From positions 1 to 60,773 of the forward strand of contig PMOA01000060.1 in assembly GCA_003161635.1 (NCBI GenBank): 60,773 nt of DNA, written 5' to 3'. The notes beneath the pieces were generated by a model, which saw only the letters and a list, made by a program, of their open reading frames with translations, did no database searches and was not told the DNA's origin. Shown here piece by piece: positions 10,072-59,149 of this stretch (position 1 is the first letter of the stretch; the number at the start of each line of letters is the position of its first letter). The position numbers and the translations under genes are program-made. This DNA comes from Limisphaerales bacterium. Lineage in GTDB: Bacteria; Verrucomicrobiota; Verrucomicrobiia; Limisphaerales; UBA11358.

Positions 10072-11112
10072 CTAATCAAATCTCCAACCGACCAGCAATG
10101 GAAATCCAGCAAGAAATTGTTCCGCCGTCAATCGCTTGCCGCTTTCGCGCTGCAACTCCAGAATCCGCAGCGCGCGCTCGCCACAACCAACTACAATGCC
10201 GGTTTTGTCCGCCGACAAAATCTCCCCCGGCCTTCGCTCTGAAGCTTCGGCCCGGCAAGCTGCTCCACTGGACTTTTCAACCACTTCCGCCTTCCAGATT
10301 TTTATCATCTTGGAGGGAAGCGCTTCGTCGCTTTCCTTACTTTTTGCAAATGAAGGCACTGACGAAGCAGTGCCCTCCATCGCTTTTGGCAAAAACGTAA
10401 ACGCGCCGGGCCAGGGCGTGAAAGCGCGCAGCCGGTTCCAAATTTCTCGCGCGGGCCGGTTCCAATCAATGCGGCCGTCTTCTTTTTTGATTTTTGCCGC
10501 GTGGCTCGCGCCGGCGGCGGGTTGCGGCGCCGGCTGGATTTTTCCGGCAACATAATCAGGCATGGTCTGGACGAGCAGTTCCGCGCCGAGTTGCGCGAGC
10601 CGGTCGTGAAGCGTGGCCGAGTCGTCTTCGAGACGAATGGGCGTGCGGCGTTGCGAAACGATTGGGCCGGTGTCCAGGCCCGCGTCCATTTTCATGATGG
10701 TGACGCCGGTCTCGGTGTCGCCGTTGGCAATGGCCCACTGAATCGGCGCCGCGCCACGATATTTGGGCAGCAGCGAAGTGTGCACGTTCAAACAGCCGTG
10801 GCGCGGCAAATCCAGGATCGCCAGCGGCAAAATCTGTCCGTAAGCCACGACGATGATGAGGTCAGGCTGTAAAGCGCGAAGTCCGGCGATGAATTTTTCG
10901 TTGCGGGCGCGTTCGGGTTGCAACACGGGCAGACCAAGCCGTAGTGCGAGCGATTTGACGGGTGATGGTTGCGGTTTGAGATCACGGCCTTTGGGCCGGT
11001 CGGGCTGCGTGACGACGGCGGCGATTTGAAATTGTGGATTGCCCGCCAATGCCTGGAGACTGGGGCAGGACAGTTCCGCCGTGCCCATGAAGATGATTCG
11101 CAACGCCGTCAT
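10072..11112 (-). CDS. fmt: Methionyl-tRNA formyltransferase
   Basis: IIFMGT, VVTQPDRPKGR, NVHTSLLPKYRGAAPIQW, PWPGA; two extra segments in the C-domain. Confidence 0.97.
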   Translation of the reverse strand: MTALRIIFMGTAELSCPSLQALAGNPQFQIAAVVTQPDRPKGRDLKPQPSPVKSLALRLGLPVLQPERARNEKFIAGLRALQPDLIIVVAYGQILPLAILDLPRHGCLNVHTSLLPKYRGAAPIQWAIANGDTETGVTIMKMDAGLDTGPIVSQRRTPIRLEDDSATLHDRLAQLGAELLVQTMPDYVAGKIQPAPQPAAGASHAAKIKKEDGRIDWNRPAREIWNRLRAFTPWPGAFTFLPKAMEGTASSVPSFAKSKESDEALPSKMIKIWKAEVVEKSSGAACRAEASERRPGEILSADKTGIVVGCGERALRILELQRESGKRLTAEQFLAGFPLLVGWRFD

Positions 11113-11156
11113 GCGGACAGCGAAAGGGAAATTGCGCTCAGGCGAAAGGAAAAACT

Positions 11157-11420
11157 GTAGCGGCACGCTTCCAGCGTGCCGGTGATGGCGGCTTCCAGCC
11201 GCCAAGTTGGGTGGGGATGCCGGTCATGCCCCGGGTTCTACGAGGCTGAATCCTGGGAGCGCCGGTGTCCACCCTCCGCAGTGCTGCTACGCCCGTCCTC
11301 CGCCGTAGCCTCGCTACGGAGGGTGGAGAGGACGGGTCTCACCGGCGTGTTTGCCGAGGGACTGGCCGGCGGGACGCCAGTCGTCGCTCCGCTATGCCCC
11401 GGCAAGCCGGCGCTCCCGGG
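11157..11420. repeat. Composite REP cluster with nested insertion
   Basis: GTAG...CTAC unit (11157-11240) plus GGGAGCGCCGG...CCGGCGCTCCC unit holding a 69-nt nested palindrome. Confidence 0.75.
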
Positions 11421-19480: not shown

Positions 19481-19722
19481 GGCGCATCTCAGTTTTTAAG
19501 CAGGTCGCGGAGCGACCTGATGATGGTAGCCGTGGCTGTTCAAGCCACGGTGAACAGCACAAAACGGCCGCCGTCGCGGAGCGACGGTTGAAACACGAGC
19601 CTGACGAGATTTCAGGCGTCGCTCCGCGACGCAAGACCAATGGACGCATTTCCGTGGGATAAATCCCACGGCTACAGTCAAATCTCGCTCCGCAAGGTGC
19701 TGCGCAAAAAGTGAGATGCGCC
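19481..19722. mobile_element. Non-autonomous MITE-like element with TIRs and 15-bp flanking direct repeat
   Basis: Ends GGCGCATCTCAgTTTTT / AAAAAgTGAGATGCGCC; GGAAAGTTACGGAGG at 19466-19480 and 19723-19737; internal GTCGCGGAGCGAC palindromes. Confidence 0.8.
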
Positions 19723-22496: not shown

Positions 22497-22627
22497 GTAG
22501 CGCAGGCATTCCTGCCTGCGGGTTCTGGCGACTTTCCAGTCGCCAGTCCTTGAAAACAAACCGCGCCCGCTGTCAAACACGGGACAGGAATGTCCCGTGA
22601 ACCCGCAGACAAGAATGTCTGCGCTAC
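22497..22627. repeat. GTAG REP doublet
   Basis: GTAGCGCAGGCATTCCTGCCTGCG...CGCAGACAAGAATGTCTGCGCTAC; same family at 34737-34835. Confidence 0.85.
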
Positions 22628-24435
22628 AGCTTTGCCAACTCCGCACCGGCCAGTTGAATCAACGGCTTGATCGTTGCCGCGTCGAATCGAAACGGGCAGC
22701 CGGCGGCGGAAAACAATTCCGGCAACGGGCGCGAGCCGCCGAGCGCGAGCGATTTTTTGTAGTCGTTCAACGTCTTTGCCTTGTTGCGTTTTGAATTCGC
22801 CCAGACCTGCAGCGCGCCGAGCTGCGCGATGCCGTATTCGATGTAGTAAAACGGGTGAGTGAAAATGTGAAGCTGCCGGTGCCAGAGATTGGCCCGCGCC
22901 GCTTTGTACCCACTCCAATCCACGTCCCCGCCGAAACGGTCCATCAATTCCAGCCACGCGGCGGCGCGCTCGGCGCGGCTGTGGCCGGGCTGAGTGTAAA
23001 TCCAGTGCTGGAACTCATCCACCGTGGCAATCCACGGGAAAACTCCGATGATACCTTCCAAATGAACCCGCCGCGCGCGGTTCGCGTCGGCGGCGGAATA
23101 AAATTCCTCGATGAATTCGTTGCCGAGCAGTTCCATGCTCATTGAGGCGACCTCGCAGAATTCAATGGGCGGGCTGTTGCGATAGGCATGCAAATCCTCG
23201 TTGCGCGCGGCCAGCGCGTGAAAGGCATGGCCGGCCTCGTGCAGAATCGTCTCCACGTCGCGCTGCTGGCCGACGGCATTCATAAAAATGAACGGCACGC
23301 GCGCCTCGGCCAGCGTCTGCTGATAGCCGCCCGGGGCCTTGCCTTTGCGATTGTCGAGGTCGAGCAGGCGCAGGTTCTGCATTTGCCGGAAACCGCCCGC
23401 GAGTTCGCCGTCCAGCCGGTCAAAAATTTTCTGCGTGCGCGAAACCATTTCGTCCACCGGCCCGAACGGTTTCAACGGCGGACGATTCTGCGGGTCAACC
23501 GCCAAATCCCACGGACGCAGGTGGCCCGGATGCAATTTGTCGAGGCCCAGTTGGTGGCGGCGGGCGGCGTGGAGTTCGCGCACGGCGGGCATGACTTCCC
23601 GGGCGACCGCATCGTGAAAACGCGTGCAATCCTGCGGCGTGTAATCGAACCGGCCGAGCCGGCGGAAGGCGTAATCGCGATAATTTTTGAACCCGGCGTT
23701 CCGGGCGGTTTGCTGGCGGAGTTCGATGAGCCGGTCGAAAATTTCGTCGAAATTGTCCACCTCCTGCAAACGCCGTCTGGCCACCAGTTCCCAGGCCTCC
23801 TGGCGCAGCGCGCGGTCCGGCTCTTCCAGGTAACAGCCCATCTGAACGAGCGTCTTTTCATCGCCGCGAAAGTTCACCGTGAGCGAGCCGGTCAATTTCT
23901 GGTATTGCTGGCAGAGCTTGGCGTCCTCGGTTTCAAGCGCGACGTTTTCCTGCCGGAACAGCTCGACGTGATTCTTTACGTCGCGGTCAAAGACTTCATA
24001 ACGCCGGAACGCCGGCCTCCGGCCCGACTCGTTGTCAACGGTTCGAGCCGGACCGGAGGCCGGCGCTCCAATCGCAAGCAGTTCGACGCGCTGCGGATGG
24101 GTGACGTAAATTTTTTCGAGCGCGAACTGGCGCGGCTTGAGTTGCGGCTCGACGTTTTCGACGAAATACAGATACGCCTTCTCCGCCTCGGCATTATCCG
24201 TGTGGCAGGTCATGGCGATGTAACGGCGGGACGATTCCTCGTCCAGCGCGGCGGTGAGTTCGCTCCAGTCGAGCAGCCAGCGTTCGAGGTCGGCGGCGAA
24301 TTTACATTGCGCGGCGCGTTTTTCCAACTGGTCGAACAGCGGCGCGATTTGCGGCCAGTCGCCGAGGTCAATGGTTTGCGGAACAAAGGTCCGGACTTTG
24401 TGGGCGGGCAATTTTCCAAACGGCAACAAATTCAT
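22624..24435 (-). CDS. pepF: M3-family oligoendopeptidase
   Basis: HEAGHAFH zinc motif, KAPGGY, EVASMSME, PFYYIEY. Confidence 0.92.
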   Translation of the reverse strand: MNLLPFGKLPAHKVRTFVPQTIDLGDWPQIAPLFDQLEKRAAQCKFAADLERWLLDWSELTAALDEESSRRYIAMTCHTDNAEAEKAYLYFVENVEPQLKPRQFALEKIYVTHPQRVELLAIGAPASGPARTVDNESGRRPAFRRYEVFDRDVKNHVELFRQENVALETEDAKLCQQYQKLTGSLTVNFRGDEKTLVQMGCYLEEPDRALRQEAWELVARRRLQEVDNFDEIFDRLIELRQQTARNAGFKNYRDYAFRRLGRFDYTPQDCTRFHDAVAREVMPAVRELHAARRHQLGLDKLHPGHLRPWDLAVDPQNRPPLKPFGPVDEMVSRTQKIFDRLDGELAGGFRQMQNLRLLDLDNRKGKAPGGYQQTLAEARVPFIFMNAVGQQRDVETILHEAGHAFHALAARNEDLHAYRNSPPIEFCEVASMSMELLGNEFIEEFYSAADANRARRVHLEGIIGVFPWIATVDEFQHWIYTQPGHSRAERAAAWLELMDRFGGDVDWSGYKAARANLWHRQLHIFTHPFYYIEYGIAQLGALQVWANSKRNKAKTLNDYKKSLALGGSRPLPELFSAAGCPFRFDAATIKPLIQLAGAELAKL

Positions 24436-34663: not shown

Positions 34664-34736
34664 AAGCGAATTCCACACCGCCAGGAGATGCAACCCGGCA
34701 CTGTTCTTGGTCGGGAAGTCTGGGCCGGGAGCGCCG

Positions 34737-34835
34737 GGCGACTGGAAAGTCGCCCAAACCCGCTGACAAGAATGTCCGCGCTACGTGTAGCGCAGGCTTT
34801 CCAGCCTGCGGGTTCTGGGGACTTTCCAGTCCCCA
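34737..34835. repeat. GTAG REP units, tail-to-head
   Basis: ...GTCCGCGCTAC GT GTAGCGCAGG...; same family as 22497-22627. Confidence 0.8.
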
Positions 34836-34937
34836 GTTTAAGAACGGTGTCGAGTTGCACCCATCGCCAGGGCCGGCCTTGAGCCGGACTTGTGCGTTAG
34901 CCGCCAAGTTGAGACGCTGACACGTGACGTGCATTCC

Positions 34938-49955: not shown

Positions 49956-50765
49956 GTGCAAAAGCTCGGCAAAAATCATGGTGGCTACCACGGCGAGACG
50001 ATTGACATCCGCGCCGTCCTGCGCGACGTCGAAACCGCCGCGCAACAACATGGCTGGACATTCGAGCCGTTTGGGAGGCAGGGCGATTTCAACCTGCTCG
50101 CCTTCCATCGCCAGCCACTCTCAACTCTCAACCCCTTGGCGCGGCGAAGCGAAGCGGAGACGGCTCAACTCTCAACCCGTGTTTACCTCAGCACCGGCAT
50201 TCACGGCGACGAGCCTGCCGGGCCGCTCGCGGCGTTGCGCCTGCTCCAGGAAAACCAATGGCCGGCGAACGCAGAACTTTGGTTCTGCCCGTGCCTGAAT
50301 CCGATGGGTTTCGTTTTGAACCGCCGGGAGAACGACAAACGTATTGACCTCAACCGGCAATACCGGCACTTGGAAACAGCGGAGACGCGCGCGCACATCG
50401 CGTGGCTGGAGCGCCAGCCGCAGTTCGACCTCTGCCTCTGCCTGCACGAAGATTGGGAATCGCACGGTTTTTACGTTTACGAATTGAATCCGGAAAACCG
50501 CCCATCACTGGCCGAAGCCATGATTGCGCGCATCGCAGAAGTCTGCCCGATTGATCCATCTGAAATCATCGAAGACCGCCCGGCCCGGGGCGGCATCATC
50601 CGTCCGAACCTTGATCCGCATACGCGACCGCAATGGGCCGAGGCGTTTTATTTGATCGTGAACAAGACGAAGCTGTCCTACACACTCGAAACGCCGTCGG
50701 ATTTTCCGTTGACCACCCGCGTCAACGCGCTCGTCACCGGCGTGAACGCCGCGCTGGCAAAATAG
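49956..50765 (+). CDS. M14-family metallocarboxypeptidase/deacylase
   Basis: GIHGDEPAG, NP.G, DLNR, LHED, TLETPS; start uncertain. Confidence 0.88.
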   Translation: MQKLGKNHGGYHGETIDIRAVLRDVETAAQQHGWTFEPFGRQGDFNLLAFHRQPLSTLNPLARRSEAETAQLSTRVYLSTGIHGDEPAGPLAALRLLQENQWPANAELWFCPCLNPMGFVLNRRENDKRIDLNRQYRHLETAETRAHIAWLERQPQFDLCLCLHEDWESHGFYVYELNPENRPSLAEAMIARIAEVCPIDPSEIIEDRPARGGIIRPNLDPHTRPQWAEAFYLIVNKTKLSYTLETPSDFPLTTRVNALVTGVNAALAK

Positions 50766-51260: not shown

Positions 51261-51347
51261 TCAAGAAATGAAAGTGTCCATCCCCGCGCAGTTGCAAACC
51301 GGGTTGCGATCGCCAAAGACGTTGTCAATGCGGCTGGCGTGCGGCCA
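51261..51347 (-). pseudogene. Diverged orphan copy of the gcvP 3' end (copy 2)
   Basis: WPHASRIDNVFGDRNPVCNCAGMDTFIS* vs gene [28 protein letters not shown]. Confidence 0.9.
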
Positions 51348-51594
51348 TAAATTGCCATGTCCCTGCGGTCGAAAGGCCAGTTCCGGGACGCTTGCAGAAT
51401 GGCCTGGGCTTTGGGGCAGGTGATCACGATGGTCGCATCGTCCTCGACCTTGGGATAAACATCCGGCTTGATGTGCTGCGTCATGGCAAAAGCGGAGACG
51501 AGCCGCTGGCCACCACGAACCACGTCGCCAGGTCCGCGCCGTAACAGCCAAAATCATTCACCGCACCGCCACCGTTGAGCACGGGATCAGTCAA
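51338..51594 (-). pseudogene. Internal fragment of a Gfo/Idh/MocA oxidoreductase, frameshifted
   Basis: LTDPVLNGGGAVNDFGCYGADLATW / fs / TQHIKPDVYPKVEDDATIV..QAS.NWPFDR.DM.IYGRT. Confidence 0.75.
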
Positions 51595-55999: not shown

Positions 56000-58900
56000 T
56001 TAGCTTTGATATATTTCCATTCCGATACAGGAACACACAGGATTACGATCGCCATACACGTTGTCCACGCGGCTGACGTGCGGCCAGAATTTGTAGTCAC
56101 GCAGGCCCGGCACCGGGTATGCCGCCTGTTCGCGCGAGTAGGGGCGATTCCAAGCATCGCTGGCAATTTGATCCGCTGTGTGCGGCGCGTTCTTGAGCAG
56201 GTTGTTCTGCCGGTCCGCCGCGCCGGATTCGATGGCGGTCATCTCGGCGTGAATGGAAATCATCGCGTCGCAGAAACGGTCCAGTTCGACCTTCGATTCG
56301 CTTTCCGTCGGCTCGACCATCAGCGTGCCGGCGACCGGCCACGAGAGCGTCGGCGCATGAAAACCGTAATCCATCAGCCGTTTCGCCACGTCCTCGGCGG
56401 TGACACTCTTGAACTGGCGCAAATCAAGGATGCACTCGTGCGCGACCCGACCTTTGCGCCCGCGATACAGCACCGGGAAATAATTTTCCATGCGTTTGGC
56501 GATATAGTTGGCGTTCAGGATGGCAAACTTGGTGGCTTCAGTCAGGCCGTCCGGGCCCATCGCGGCAATGTAAGCCCAGGAAATCGGCAAAATGCCCGCG
56601 CTGCCCCACGGCGCAGCGGCCACCGGGCCGATACGTTGGAGTTCAACCTTTAGGTTATTCCCGGCACCCGAACACGCTGAAGCGTGAACTCCAACACGGT
56701 CGAGTCGTGACGTAAAAACCGGGTGTCCTGGTAAAAACGAAACCAGGTGTTTGGCCACGCCAATCGGCCCGACGCCCGGCCCGCCGCCGCCGTGCGGAAT
56801 GCAGAATGTCTTGTGCAGGTTCAAATGGCAGACGTCCGCGCCGATGTCCGCCGGACGGCACAAACCGACCTGTGCGTTCATGTTCGCCCCGTCCATGTAA
56901 ACCTGTCCGCCGTTGGTGTGGATGATTTCGCAAATCTCCTTGATCGTCTCCTCAAACACGCCGTGCGTGGACGGATACGTGACCATCAGGCAGGCGAGGT
57001 CGGCTTTGTGCGACTCGGCTTTGGCGCGCAAATCAGCAACGTCAATGTTCCCGTTCTTGTCGCAGGCGACGGCAACGACTTTCAGCCCGGCCATGACAGC
57101 ACTGGCGGGGTTCGTGCCGTGCGCGGAGGTCGGGATGAGGCAGACGTTGCGGTGCGCTTCGCCCCGGCTTTCGTGATAAGCGCGGATGACGAGCTGGCCG
57201 GCGTATTCGCCCTGTGAACCGGCGTTGGGTTGCAGGGAAATTCCGGCGAACCCGGTGATTTCCAAAAGCCAGTCCTCAAGTTGTTGAAACAAAATCTGGT
57301 AGCCGCGCGCCTGTTTCAGCGGCGCAAAGGGATGGAGTTTTGCAAACTCCGGCCACGAAATCGGCAGCATTTCAAAGGTGGCGTTCAGCTTCATCGTGCA
57401 GGAGCCGAGCGGAATCATCGAAGCCGTCAGGGAGAGGTCGCGCGATTCGAGCCGCTTGATGTAGCGCAGCATTTGGGTCTCAGAGTGGTAGGAGTTGAAG
57501 ACCCGGTGGATAAGGAAAGGTGTGGTTCGGGCGAAGTGTGACGCAATTCCACTCTCATTAGCACCGGGCTTCAGCCCGGTGTTTGAGGTGGCGGAAATTG
57601 AAACCGTTTTAACGGTTTCGCGCGCGGACGAGGAAGCCGTTGAAACGGCTGGTATGTCGTCGTTCATTTTCACACCTGGCTGAAGCCCGGTGCTAATGAG
57701 ATCTGCGGCTACATCCGCCACTGTGAAACCTATGGCCTTGTCACCCTTAAAAATCTGCCAGATCTCGATGACGTCGCTTTCGCTGGTCGCTTCGTCGAGC
57801 GAGATGCCCAGCGTATGGTCGTCAATTTCGCGGAAATTCATCCGGTGCGCTTCGGCAGTTTTGAGAATGTTCGCTGCCGGCTTTTGGCCGAGTTCGATGC
57901 GAATCGTGTCAAAAAACGTGCTGCCAGCATCCTGCTGGCAGTTCTGACCTTTTGAATTATTCTGCCGGCGGGACGCCGGCAGCACGTTGTAACCCAGTTT
58001 TTCCAGGCCGGCGGCGAGAATTCCGGTCAGGGCGTGAATCCGCTGCGCGATTTTCTTCAAGCCTTCCGGCCCGTGATAAACGGCATACATGGACGCCATG
58101 TTCGCCAGCAACGCCTGCGCGGTGCAGATGTTACTGGTGGCTTTTTCACGACGGATGTGTTGTTCACGCGTCTGGAGCGCGAGGCGCAAAGCGGGTTTGC
58201 CGCGCGAATCCTTCGAAACGCCGACGATACGTCCGGGCAGGCTGCGTTTGAACTGGTCACGCGTGGCGAAAAACGCCGCGTGCGGGCCGCCGTAGCCCAG
58301 CGGCACGCCGAAGCGTTGCGCGCTGCCGATGGCGATGTCCGCGCTGAATTCCCCCGGCGGTTTCAATAATGTGAGTGCCAGCAAATCAGTCGCAACCGCG
58401 ACCATCGCTCCAGCAGCGTGGGCTTTTTCGACGAACGGCGCGTAATCGTGGATGGCGCCAAACGTGTCGGGATATTGCACCAGCGCACCGAAGACTTTTC
58501 CGTCGAATTGAAAACTCTCGTGATTACCCACGACAACTTCGATGCCGAGAGCTTTGGCGCGCGTCCGGACAACTTCGATGTTTTGCGGATGACAACTCTG
58601 CGAGATGAAGAAAATGTTCCGGTTGTCCTTGAGCGCATGACACATCGTCATGGCCTCGGCGGCGGCGGTGGCTTCGTCAAGCAGCGACGCATTGGCGATG
58701 TCGAGGCCGGTGAGATCGGCGACCATCGTCTGGAAATTCAGGAGCGCTTCGAGCCGGCCCTGGGAAATTTCGGCCTGATAGGGCGTGTATTGCGTGTACC
58801 AGCCGGGGTTCTCCAAAACGTTGCGCTGAATCACCGCCGGTGTGATGCAATCGTAATAGCCCATGCCGATGAACGAGCGGCAGACCTGGTTTTGCGACGC

Positions 58901-59149
58901 GATTTCCTTCAACGCGGCGAGGACTTCATGTTCACTGCGGGCGGCGGGAAGTTGAAGCAAACGCCCGAGTCGAATCGGTTTGGGAACGGCGGCGTCAATC
59001 AACGCGTCGAGGCTCGCGTAGCCGAGTTGCTTGAGCATTTCGCCGGCGTCGGCAGGACGCGGGCCAATGTGGCGGCGGACAAACCGGTCGGGATGCGGCG
59101 CGTTTTCGACGGGCTTCAAAATTTTATTCTGCTTTTCGGAAAAAGCCAT
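56000..59149 (-). CDS. gcvP: Glycine dehydrogenase (decarboxylating), GCS P protein
   Basis: [50 protein letters not shown]; three in-frame palindromic inserts. Confidence 0.98.

What the first reader, a model, noticed from the sequence alone, without database searches (positions are those of the whole stretch)
56635..57988. gcvP carries three in-frame palindromic elements from three different families
Seen: 56635-56695 (GTTGGAGTTCA...TGAACTCCAAC), 57553-57701 (perfect 24-bp terminal inverted repeats, internal hairpins, about 50 aa) and 57915-57988 (AACGTGCTGCC...GGCAGCACGTT). Together they add roughly 95 aa, accounting for a 1049-aa protein versus the usual ~960. With fmt, pepF and the M14 gene, that makes at least seven coding insertions in 61 kb. 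Established: Rickettsia palindromic elements are the precedent. Inference: a dense multi-family system creating new protein loops, or alternatively hairpins removed or bypassed at the RNA level.
Basis: partly seen in the sequence, partly recalled or inferred. Interest (0 to 1): 0.75.

Follow-up and report, generated by a model that had tools for sequence, protein, structure and literature searches.

The report
Three mobile palindromes translated inside gcvP
A glycine-cleavage enzyme gene of a peat-soil Verrucomicrobiota bacterium carries three small mobile palindromic DNA repeats inserted in frame in flexible surface loops, a free-living counterpart of the coding palindromes known from Rickettsia.

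Summary
gcvP (56000-59149, minus strand, 1049 aa) contains three palindromes at the stated coordinates. Each belongs to its own dispersed family in this 4.3-Mb draft genome: 25, 24 and 23 places.

None of 19 orthologues from related genomes has these segments. Among 75 homologues, they are the only stretches of 5 or more residues present in at most 10%. A confident AlphaFold model (pLDDT 89.2) is disordered only there and at the N-terminus.

Family E2 (149 nt) is the two ends of a Y1 (IS200-like) transposase unit without the gene. The unit occurs once in this genome and is conserved across phyla.

E1 and E3 sit in frame in many housekeeping genes, including DnaE, IleRS, ValRS, ProRS and ClpB.

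Independent DNA contigs confirm E1 and E3. One RNA-library contig carries E3 unspliced.

Net gain is 83 aa, not about 95.

The phenomenon is already described: Rickettsia RPEs, and intragenic REPs in Opitutus terrae (PMC3733652). This is a new, well-documented member. Translation is inferred, not shown at protein level.

The parts
56000..59149 (-). gcvP, single-chain glycine dehydrogenase (decarboxylating), 1049 aa, intact frame
   Evidence: ORF. TIGR00461 scores 1499 bits against a cut-off of 859. PDB 4lgl matches at E = 0. The model matches 4lhc at target-normalised TM-score 0.97.
56635..56695 (.). E1 copy, 61 nt. An outer stem GTTGGAGTT/AACTCCAAC encloses two small hairpins. It encodes [20 protein letters not shown] (about aa 819-838) and replaces a 7-aa ancestral loop, for a net gain of 15 aa.
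   Evidence: (family of 25 places). DNA contig of run X10 spans 56416-57409 with 0 differences.
57553..57701 (.). E2 copy, 149 nt. It has 30-nt terminal inverted repeats that each contain a hairpin, plus two inner hairpins. It encodes about 50 aa (aa 484-533) in the linker between the GcvPA-like and GcvPB-like halves.
   Evidence: family of 24 places; RNA-parameter fold -89.6 kcal/mol. Its two halves flank the Y1 transposase gene at C155:3848-4192.
57915..57988 (.). E3 copy, 74 nt. Two inverted arms of the form AACGTG + CTGCCGGC-loop-GCCGGCAG. It encodes [24 protein letters not shown] (aa 388-411) and replaces a 6-aa loop, for a net gain of 18 aa.
   Evidence: (family of 23 places). DNA contig of X10 spans 57755-58150 with 0 differences. 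RNA-library contig of X15 spans 57735-58051.

Best explanation
The three palindromes are copies of three non-autonomous mobile repeat families built like REP doublets (REPINs). Each end is a short terminal motif plus a GC-rich hairpin, and the two ends are inverted. They inserted into gcvP after this species split from its sampled congeners.

They most likely move as single-stranded hairpin DNA through HUH/Y1 (IS200/IS605-type) transposases and leave no target-site duplication. For E2 the likely source is identified: a single-copy Y1 transposase gene whose two flanks together make up an E2 element.

Selection then keeps only insertions that land in permissive loops, have an open frame and restore the reading frame. 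At two sites this involved loss of the ancestral loop residues. The surviving copies are transcribed and translated as disordered surface loops of an otherwise normal GcvP.

Shown here: family membership, lineage-specific insertion, the link of E2 to a Y1 gene, absence of duplications, in-frame state in many genes, loop location, and retention of E3 in one RNA-library contig. Inferred: the transposition chemistry, the cognate enzymes of E1 and E3, translation into protein, and neutrality.
For: Families and insertion.
- The families occupy 25, 24 and 23 places.
- No flanking duplications are visible at 14, 13 and 16 full-length copies.
- All 19 relatives' GcvP lack the three inserts. The only stretches of 5 or more residues present in at most 10% of 75 homologues are 395-408, 490-530 and 819-828.

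Link of E2 to a transposase.
- E2 halves flank the Y1_Tnp gene at C155:3848-4192 (Pfam 76.7 bits).
- Among 80 related transposase loci, E2-model hits lie just upstream in 77 of 77 testable loci and just downstream in 69 of 72.

Hairpins.
- Compensatory changes keep the arm hairpins paired: E3 in 7 of 16 pairs, with 100% and 98% of cells paired; E1 in 5 of 10 pairs.

In-frame state.
- 29 of 72 family places lie in open frames of at least 280 aa. Pfam names 21 of the 26 such frames outside gcvP.
- The copies give recurrent peptides: VGVQA.ACS...LKLELQR for E1, and QRAAGVPPA...RQDAGST for E3.

Location in the protein.
- The AlphaFold model has pLDDT 89.2 and pTM 0.91. pLDDT falls below 50 only at 1-3, 5-9, 394-398, 403-408, 496-526 and 819-833. 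The core matches solved GcvP structures at target-normalised TM-score 0.96-0.97.
- Site 2 lies between the GcvPA-like part (31-390) and the GcvPB-like part (555-992).

Reads.
- Contigs of an independent DNA run span E1 and E3 with 0 differences.
- One RNA-library contig (X15) spans E3 with at least 31 nt on both sides. Two more cover E3 with one short flank. No joint skips E2 or E3.
Against: - No peptide evidence exists. RNA libraries can contain DNA, and contigs hide rare spliced forms.
- E1 has no RNA cover in the runs laid.
- No transposase flanked by E1 or E3 arms was found in this draft genome. The one E3 arm pair 1 kb apart that was looked at in a congener proved to be two separate short elements.
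- The C155 protein scores just under NCBIfam's IS200 cut-off (53.7 against 55 bits). It does not hit the RAYT model at E of 1e-5 or better.
- At sites 1 and 3 the element replaces the ancestral loop rather than simply interrupting it. Plain insertion does not explain that by itself.
- A hairpin of about -90 kcal/mol inside a coding region is a considerable obstacle to translation.
Confidence: 0.85

Rival explanations
1. The hairpins are removed from the mRNA, or bypassed by the ribosome as in phage T4 gene 60 or mitochondrial byp elements (examples recalled), so the mature protein lacks them.
For: The elements fold very stably: E2 reaches -89.6 kcal/mol. E1 has no cover in the three RNA runs laid. 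One RNA contig of X16 joins 56614 to 56748.
Against: - That joint skips 133 nt, which is not a multiple of 3. It does not coincide with the E1 ends, and the contig is only about 95% identical. It fits a relative with the short loop type.
- RNA-library contigs carry E3 with its flanks, and no joint skips E2 or E3.
- All 29 intragenic family places found are open in the host frame, although an open frame was part of the definition of intragenic.
- In 0 of 10 same-strand ORF pairs beside the remaining E1/E3 copies did both ORFs match one Pfam family. Four pairs had no match on either side and are uninformative. Removal before translation would lift the need for open, in-frame copies.
Confidence: 0.04
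2. The inserts are kept because they now do something. They might act as mRNA structures that pause translation between domains, since E2 sits exactly at the GcvPA/GcvPB junction. Or they might act as new protein surfaces. This does not exclude a mobile origin.
For: Arm hairpins stay paired through compensatory changes even in intragenic copies. Other species carry different palindromes at the same two gcvP sites: L005 at site 2, and L002/L004 and L006 at site 3.
Against: - Compensated variants can be inherited from different master copies rather than selected in place.
- Recurrence at the same loops is what purifying selection on insertion position predicts.
- The inserts are predicted to be disordered and are absent from 19 of 19 relatives.
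Confidence: 0.08
3. The inserts are an artefact or decay: chimeric metagenome assembly through repeats, or gcvP is an unexpressed pseudogene.
For: The genome is a draft of 159 contigs. Contigs of other runs often break at the E2 ends (loose ends at 57552).
Against: - Contigs from a different study span E1 and E3 with 0 differences. Fourteen of the 20 runs listed, which come from 13 studies in all, hold at least half of the sampled words.
- The frame is intact over 1049 codons. The PLP-lysine motif HLNLHKTF is visible in the translation and conserved in the alignment (the identity of the motif is recalled).
- RNA-library contigs cover most of the gene.
Confidence: 0.02

Closest known systems
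Rickettsia palindromic elements (RPE-1 to RPE-10; Ogata et al. 2000, 2002, as summarised in passages of PMC10969869 and PMC3733652)
   Same: Dispersed palindromic repeats from several families are inserted in frame in unrelated housekeeping genes. They encode recurrent peptides at sites compatible with the fold.
   Different: The host is a free-living peat Verrucomicrobiota bacterium with a 4.3-Mb genome, not a reduced intracellular one. E1 and E3 are 50-115 nt REP-doublet-like elements. No sequence relation to RPEs was tested. One family (E2) is tied here to a Y1 transposase unit.
Intragenic GTAG/CGTC REPs (Di Nocera et al. 2013, PMC3733652; abstract and passages read)
   Same: REP monomers and dimers encoding 20-30 aa lie inside genes, many of them for DNA replication or repair and for tRNA synthetases. 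The highest count of GTAG-type copies is in Opitutus terrae, also a verrucomicrobium. DnaE, UvrD-type helicases and aaRS genes are hit here too.
   Different: E1, E2 and E3 lack the GTAG or CGTC end tag. E3 begins AACGTG in most copies. Relatives' gcvP at site 3 does carry GGTAGGG...CCCTACC elements. Three different families in one gene were not found described in the passages read.
REPIN-RAYT systems (Bertels and Rainey 2011, PMC3116915; search listing and abstract only)
   Same: Two inverted REP hairpins separated by a spacer form a non-autonomous unit. A single-copy Y1 transposase gene is flanked by its own repeat type. Several such pairs coexist in this genome.
   Different: REPINs are extragenic by definition. 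Here 11 of 25 E1 places and 16 of 23 E3 places lie in long open frames. Spacers vary in length: full-length E3 copies range from 58 to 115 nt. The C155 enzyme does not match NCBIfam's RAYT model.
TIRtrons / TIRYT: tyrosine transposases flanked by long terminal inverted repeats (PMC3733652, passages)
   Same: The C155 Y1 gene is flanked by about 75-nt inverted ends that contain self-complementary tracts. Those ends form a moderately abundant repeat family. Relatives occur in Verrucomicrobiota and Acidobacteriota.
   Different: No alignment to the published TIRYT groups was made; the supplementary alignment was not seen. A coding insertion of such an element is not mentioned in the passages read.

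Membership tests
GcvP (single-chain glycine dehydrogenase, decarboxylating) | Full-length match to the curated family model and to the fold of solved P-proteins | tested here: met
   TIGR00461 scores 1499.1 bits against a cut-off of 859.2. 4lgl matches at E = 0. Target-normalised TM-score is 0.96-0.97.
REPIN (REP doublet forming a hairpin) | Two inverted copies of a short palindromic REP, present as a dispersed multi-copy family | tested here: met
   Arm hairpins and inverted arrangement are shown. They are paired with compensatory changes. The families occupy 23-25 places each.
REPIN (REP doublet forming a hairpin) | Cognate single-copy RAYT gene flanked by the same repeat | tested here: inconclusive
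   E2: a Y1 gene is flanked by E2 halves, but it does not hit NCBIfam REP_Tyr_transpos at E of 1e-5 or better. E1 and E3: no model hit within 1.2 kb of any of the 10 Y1 matches. The genome is a draft, 94.6% complete.
REPIN (REP doublet forming a hairpin) | Extragenic location | tested here: not met
   29 of 72 places lie in open frames of at least 280 aa. 21 of the 26 frames outside gcvP are supported by Pfam.
GTAG- or CGTC-tagged REP superfamilies (PMC3733652) | Conserved GTAG or CGTC tetranucleotide at one end of the stem-loop | tested here: not met
   E1 starts GTTGGAG, E2 starts TCTCATTA and E3 starts AACGTG. None carries GTAG or CGTC at the end.
DDE-type MITE | Target-site duplication flanking the terminal inverted repeats | tested here: not met
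   No repeated flank is visible at 14 E1, 13 E2 and 16 E3 full-length copies (inspection of printed flanks).
IS200/IS605 Y1 (HUH) transposase (the C155 gene) | Match to the Y1_Tnp domain | tested here: met
   PF01797 scores 76.7-77.1 bits against a cut-off of 23. NCBIfam transpos_IS200 scores 53.7 bits, just under its cut-off of 55. An HVH and a later Y..Q are seen by eye in the translation; the motif assignment is recalled.
Rickettsia palindromic elements | Sequence homology to an RPE family | not tested
   No RPE sequence was available from a tool. Only the mode of insertion is compared.

The most novel reading that the evidence does not exclude
The loops are not merely tolerant. Palindromic elements of different families have repeatedly replaced the same two gcvP loops in different species: site 2 here and in L005, and site 3 here, in L002/L004 and in L006. 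That could point to a targeted process, such as insertion at transiently single-stranded or hairpin-prone sites with loss of the resident loop, or copy-in by template switching. Under that reading, the retained and compensated hairpins would serve in the mRNA, for example as a pause between the two halves of the enzyme. This would make REPIN-like elements a regular generator and exchanger of protein loops in Verrucomicrobiota.
Probability: 0.1. Interest if true: 0.7.

Novelty: new member of a known kind. Interest (0 to 1): 0.45.

Why it matters
The case shows that coding palindromes are not a peculiarity of reduced intracellular genomes. In an abundant free-living peat bacterium, several repeat families sit in frame in essential genes, including DnaE, three aminoacyl-tRNA synthetases, ClpB and TsaD. 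Three of them sit in gcvP alone.

About 27% of the 510 highly repeated short intervals lie in long open frames, against 61% for random placements.

The genome offers a natural series for two questions: how proteins absorb 15-50 aa disordered loops, and how HUH-transposase-driven repeats are filtered by selection. One family comes with an identifiable transposase unit that can be tested in vitro.

For annotation, such inserts explain over-long orthologues and split HMM hits in metagenome-assembled genomes.

Tried and rejected
- The first AlphaFold job, with a 20-sequence alignment, gave mean pLDDT 52.6 and was discarded. A 76-sequence alignment solved this.
- A 150-sequence alignment was too large for the fold server.
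- A search for an autonomous E3 element followed the one E3 arm pair 1 kb apart that I noticed in the congeners' matches (G017). It turned out to be two separate short elements, one in frame in an AcrB-like ORF.
- E1 and E3 models find nothing next to any of the 10 Y1 matches of this genome.
- RNA cover of E1 was 0 to 1.2 in the three RNA runs, so nothing can be said for E1.
- RNA cover of E2 cannot be assigned to gcvP, because other E2 copies contribute. One X16 contig reaches from the right arm into the flank, but only 30 nt of it lie in the element.
- The X16 joints 56614>56748 and 56620>56754 (133 nt) were considered as excision and rejected. They are not at the element ends, the skip is not a multiple of 3, and the contig is about 95% identical.
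- The split-gene test on neighbours of non-spanning copies had no Pfam match on either ORF in 4 of 10 pairs.
- Model coordinates could not be read in scripts. Distances of the inserts from the PLP site and the dimer interface were therefore not computed.
- The supplementary tables of PMC3733652 (lists of intragenic REPs, TIRYT alignment) were not opened and may already list similar genes.
Full report
**1. The observation**

The region lies in one open frame, 56000-59149 on the minus strand, 1049 aa. The frame is gcvP. TIGR00461 scores 1499 bits against a cut-off of 859. Its closest solved relatives are the Synechocystis, human and E. coli P-proteins.

- E2, 57553-57701: 30-nt arms, 97% complementary, with the first 24 bp perfect.
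- E3, 57915-57988: 27-nt arms, 85% complementary.
- E1, 56635-56695: 26-nt arms, 77% complementary.

**2. They are members of three dispersed families**

BLAST and four rounds of nhmmer against the window's own genome (4.31 Mb, 159 contigs, 94.6% complete) give 25 distinct places for E1, 24 for E2 and 23 for E3.

The three share one design. Each end is a short terminal motif followed by a GC-rich hairpin, and the two ends are inverted.
- E1 is about 55 nt: GTTGGAGTT, CAAGC-TTTA-GCTTG, spacer, CAAGC-TGAA-GCTTG, AACTCCAAC.
- E3 is 58-115 nt: AACGTG, CTGCCGGC-ATCTT-GCCGGCAG, a variable spacer, and the mirror arm.
- E2 is about 148 nt: TCTCATTAAC, CACCCGGC-TTCA-GCCGGGTG, two inner hairpins of the type AACCGTTTYAACGGTT, and the mirror arm.

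Changes in a hairpin are compensated within the same arm, not in the opposite arm.
- In 14 intragenic E3 copies, 7 of 16 hairpin pairs show double changes, and 100% and 98.2% of cells are paired. None of 500 shuffles reaches the observed covariation score.
- In 9 intragenic E1 copies, 5 of 10 hairpin pairs show double changes.

This is the anatomy of REP doublets (REPINs). No target-site duplication is visible at 14, 13 and 16 full-length copies. That argues against DDE-type MITEs and for HUH/Y1 chemistry; the mechanism itself is inferred from established knowledge of IS200/IS605.

**3. A transposase for E2**

Pfam Y1_Tnp finds 10 matches in the genome, six of them full length. Each full-length gene has its own palindromes on its flanks.

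The gene at C155:3848-4192 is flanked on the left by one E2 half in reverse orientation and on the right by the other half. The halves match E2 model positions 74-149 and 76-149. An E2 element is therefore this unit with the gene removed.

Among 80 related transposase loci from public genomes, the E2 model hits just upstream in 77 of 77 testable loci. It hits just downstream in 69 of 72, and on both sides in 66 of 80. The best matches, at 76-87% identity, are mostly named Verrucomicrobiota, Verrucomicrobiae or Limisphaerales MAGs; two of the six have other names. More distant ones are from Acidobacteriota, Bacteroidota and others.

The unit corresponds to what Di Nocera et al. call a TIRtron or TIRYT (PMC3733652, passages read).

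The protein is a Y1 transposase by Pfam (76.7 bits). It falls just under NCBIfam's IS200 cut-off (53.7 against 55 bits) and does not hit the RAYT model.

For E1 and E3 no flanked transposase was found. The one E3 arm pair 1 kb apart that I followed up, in congener G017, is two separate short elements. E1 hairpins share the centre GCTGAAGC/GCTTYAGC with E2 hairpins (by eye). Mobilisation by the same or a related enzyme is therefore possible but untested.

**4. The inserts are lineage-specific and sit in permissive loops**

GcvP was recovered from 19 related genomes, 14 of them from the same genus. None has the three segments.

Net gains against the nearest orthologues are:
- Site 1: +18 aa. The 74-nt E3 fills all 24 codons between GY and FFDT, where relatives have 6-13 codons.
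- Site 2: +50 aa, that is 149 nt plus 1.
- Site 3: +15 aa. E1 plus 5 nt stands where relatives have EKNSKQH.

The total is 83 aa. At sites 1 and 3 the ancestral loop is gone, so the events were insertion plus loss. I cannot order these steps.

In an alignment with 75 homologues (19 relatives and 56 diverse representatives), the only stretches of P0001 of 5 or more residues occupied by at most 10% of sequences are 395-408, 490-530 and 819-828.

The AlphaFold model built on that alignment has mean pLDDT 89.2 and pTM 0.91. pLDDT falls below 50 only at 1-3, 5-9, 394-398, 403-408, 496-526 and 819-833. Its core superposes on solved P-proteins at target-normalised TM-score 0.96-0.97.

Site 2 lies between the part matching GcvPA (31-390) and the part matching GcvPB (555-992). 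In other organisms these two halves are separate polypeptides.

Other species carry different strongly folding inserts at the same loops. L005 has one at site 2 (-68.7 kcal/mol). L002/L004 and L006 have them at site 3, of the GGTAGGG...CCCTACC kind.

**5. The same families are in frame in many other genes**

29 of the 72 family places lie inside open frames of at least 280 aa with at least 25 aa on each side. This breaks down as 11 of 25 for E1, 2 of 24 for E2 (one of them a weak partial match) and 16 of 23 for E3.

Pfam supports 21 of the 26 frames outside gcvP. They are Mfd, GH20, CstA, RecJ, HrpB, a P-type ATPase, RNase D, a UvrD-type helicase, DUF58, RsmB, IleRS, a U32 peptidase, a DinG-type helicase, ProRS, ValRS, TsaD, a heptosyltransferase, DnaE, ClpB, a GH106 enzyme and a cation-efflux protein.

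The copies are read in few frames and give recurrent peptides: E1 gives VGVQA(L/S)ACS...LKLELQR, and E3 gives QRAAGVPPA...RQDAGST(F/L) or NVLPASRRQ.

E3 copies are open in 1-6 of six frames, and in 3-6 in all but two. Thirteen of the 24 E2 places are closed in all six, and the gcvP copy is open in one frame only. E2 inside a gene is therefore the rare event.

Genome-wide, 14-mers present at least 8 times mark 2278 intervals, 1.65% of the genome. Of the 510 intervals of 40-200 nt, 140 (27.5%) lie in open frames of at least 300 aa, against 1241 of 2040 (60.8%) random placements. Antisense open frames in GC-rich DNA inflate both figures.

**6. RNA-level removal**

If the hairpins were cut out or bypassed, copies that break the frame should be tolerated inside genes. 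None was seen.
- All intragenic copies found are open in the host frame, although that was part of the definition.
- In 0 of the 10 same-strand ORF pairs abutting the remaining E1/E3 copies do both ORFs match one Pfam family. Four pairs had no match on either side and say nothing.

The sequencing-run search listed 20 runs from 13 studies that hold the stretch or part of it. Fourteen hold at least half of its sampled words, and all of those hold at least 94%.

Contigs of four runs were laid on the gene:
- In DNA run X10, from a study other than the possible source, one contig covers 56416-57409 and another covers 57755-58150, both with 0 differences. They confirm E1 and E3 in place. A third contig runs from the first base of E2 to 57753.
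- In RNA-library runs, X15 has a contig covering 57735-58051 that spans E3 with 180 and 63 nt of flank.
- X16 (57851-58006) and X17 (57895-58099) cover E3 with one short flank each.
- No joint skips E2 or E3.
- E1 is not covered in RNA.
- The X16 joints 56614>56748 and 56620>56754 skip 133 nt, do not match the element ends, and sit on a contig about 95% identical. I read them as a relative with the short loop.

Contigs cannot exclude rare spliced forms, and RNA libraries can hold DNA.

**7. Comparison with what is known**

In-frame palindromic repeats are established for Rickettsia RPEs (passages in PMC10969869 and PMC3733652).

Di Nocera et al. 2013 (PMC3733652) report intragenic GTAG and CGTC REPs in several species. 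The highest GTAG count is in Opitutus terrae, a verrucomicrobium. Many lie in replication, repair and tRNA-synthetase genes and encode 20-30 aa. The present case matches that picture.

A literature search for Verrucomicrobia, REPs and intragenic repeats returned only that paper as relevant.

What this case adds:
- three non-GTAG/CGTC families in a single gene;
- a 149-nt TIRtron-derived element in a coding region;
- recurrent hits on the same loops in congeners;
- a structural model that isolates the inserts as the only disordered parts.

I therefore class it as a new member of a known kind.

**8. Distribution**

The E3 arm pattern, with up to 3 mismatches, occurs in 9 of 41 genomes of the genus. 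Counts are G000 35, G018 22, G009 15 and G017 5, with single matches in five others. The reversed control gives 0 everywhere. Expansion is therefore patchy and recent in a few lineages.

**9. Open points**

- Translation is not shown at protein level.
- The enzymes that move E1 and E3 are unknown.
- Loop replacement at sites 1 and 3 is unexplained.
- How the ribosome copes with the E2 hairpin of -89.6 kcal/mol is unknown.

Noticed in passing
window 24006-24069: A palindrome with 26-nt arms, 88% complementary (GGAACGCCGGCCTCCGGCC.../...GGACCGGAGGCCGGCGCTCC), lies in frame in the Peptidase_M3 (pepF-like) ORF 22624-24435 (-). It sits N-terminal to the Pfam domain. It belongs to another high-copy family.
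   Followed up: partly
window 10311-10379: The fmt ORF (10072-11205, -) is 377 aa. Its Formyl_trans_C match spans 131 residues for a 100-position profile. A 19-nt-arm inverted repeat, 84% complementary, lies in that stretch. Family membership was not tested.
   Followed up: partly
window 50120-50178: The M14-like ORF (AstE_AspA hit) holds two exact direct copies of CTCAACTCTCAACCC 44 nt apart. These are made of high-copy 14-mers.
   Followed up: partly
window 19572-19631: A CGTC-type REP doublet (CGTCGCGGAGCGACG ... CGTCGCTCCGCGACG). The same GGTCGCTCCGCGACC-type palindromes flank the Y1 transposase gene at C149:20863-21207. This indicates a second repeat/transposase pair in the genome.
   Followed up: no
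window 22521-22627 and 34735-34838: Two composite repeats of about 105 nt, each made of several hairpins (GGCGACTGGAAAGTCGCC, GTAGCGCAGGC...GCCTGCG types). The second lies in a 530-aa open frame that has no Pfam support.
   Followed up: no
window 51270-51353 (-): A 28-aa stretch 64% identical to the C-terminus of GcvP (aa 1020-1047) lies about 4.6 kb from the gene, in a 98-aa open frame. It may be a remnant of a duplication or rearrangement.
   Followed up: no
L137 (G017:C5) 525-592 and 1487-1552: In a congener, one E3 element is in frame in an AcrB-like ORF, giving the peptide ...QRAAGGTPAEPTDGIAGKMPATRF.... A second E3 element lies just upstream of that gene.
   Followed up: partly
G000 contigs C149, C15, C99, C118, C155, C53: Six full-length Y1_Tnp genes are each flanked by a different palindrome type. 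The one on C15 has an in-frame TGA.
   Followed up: partly
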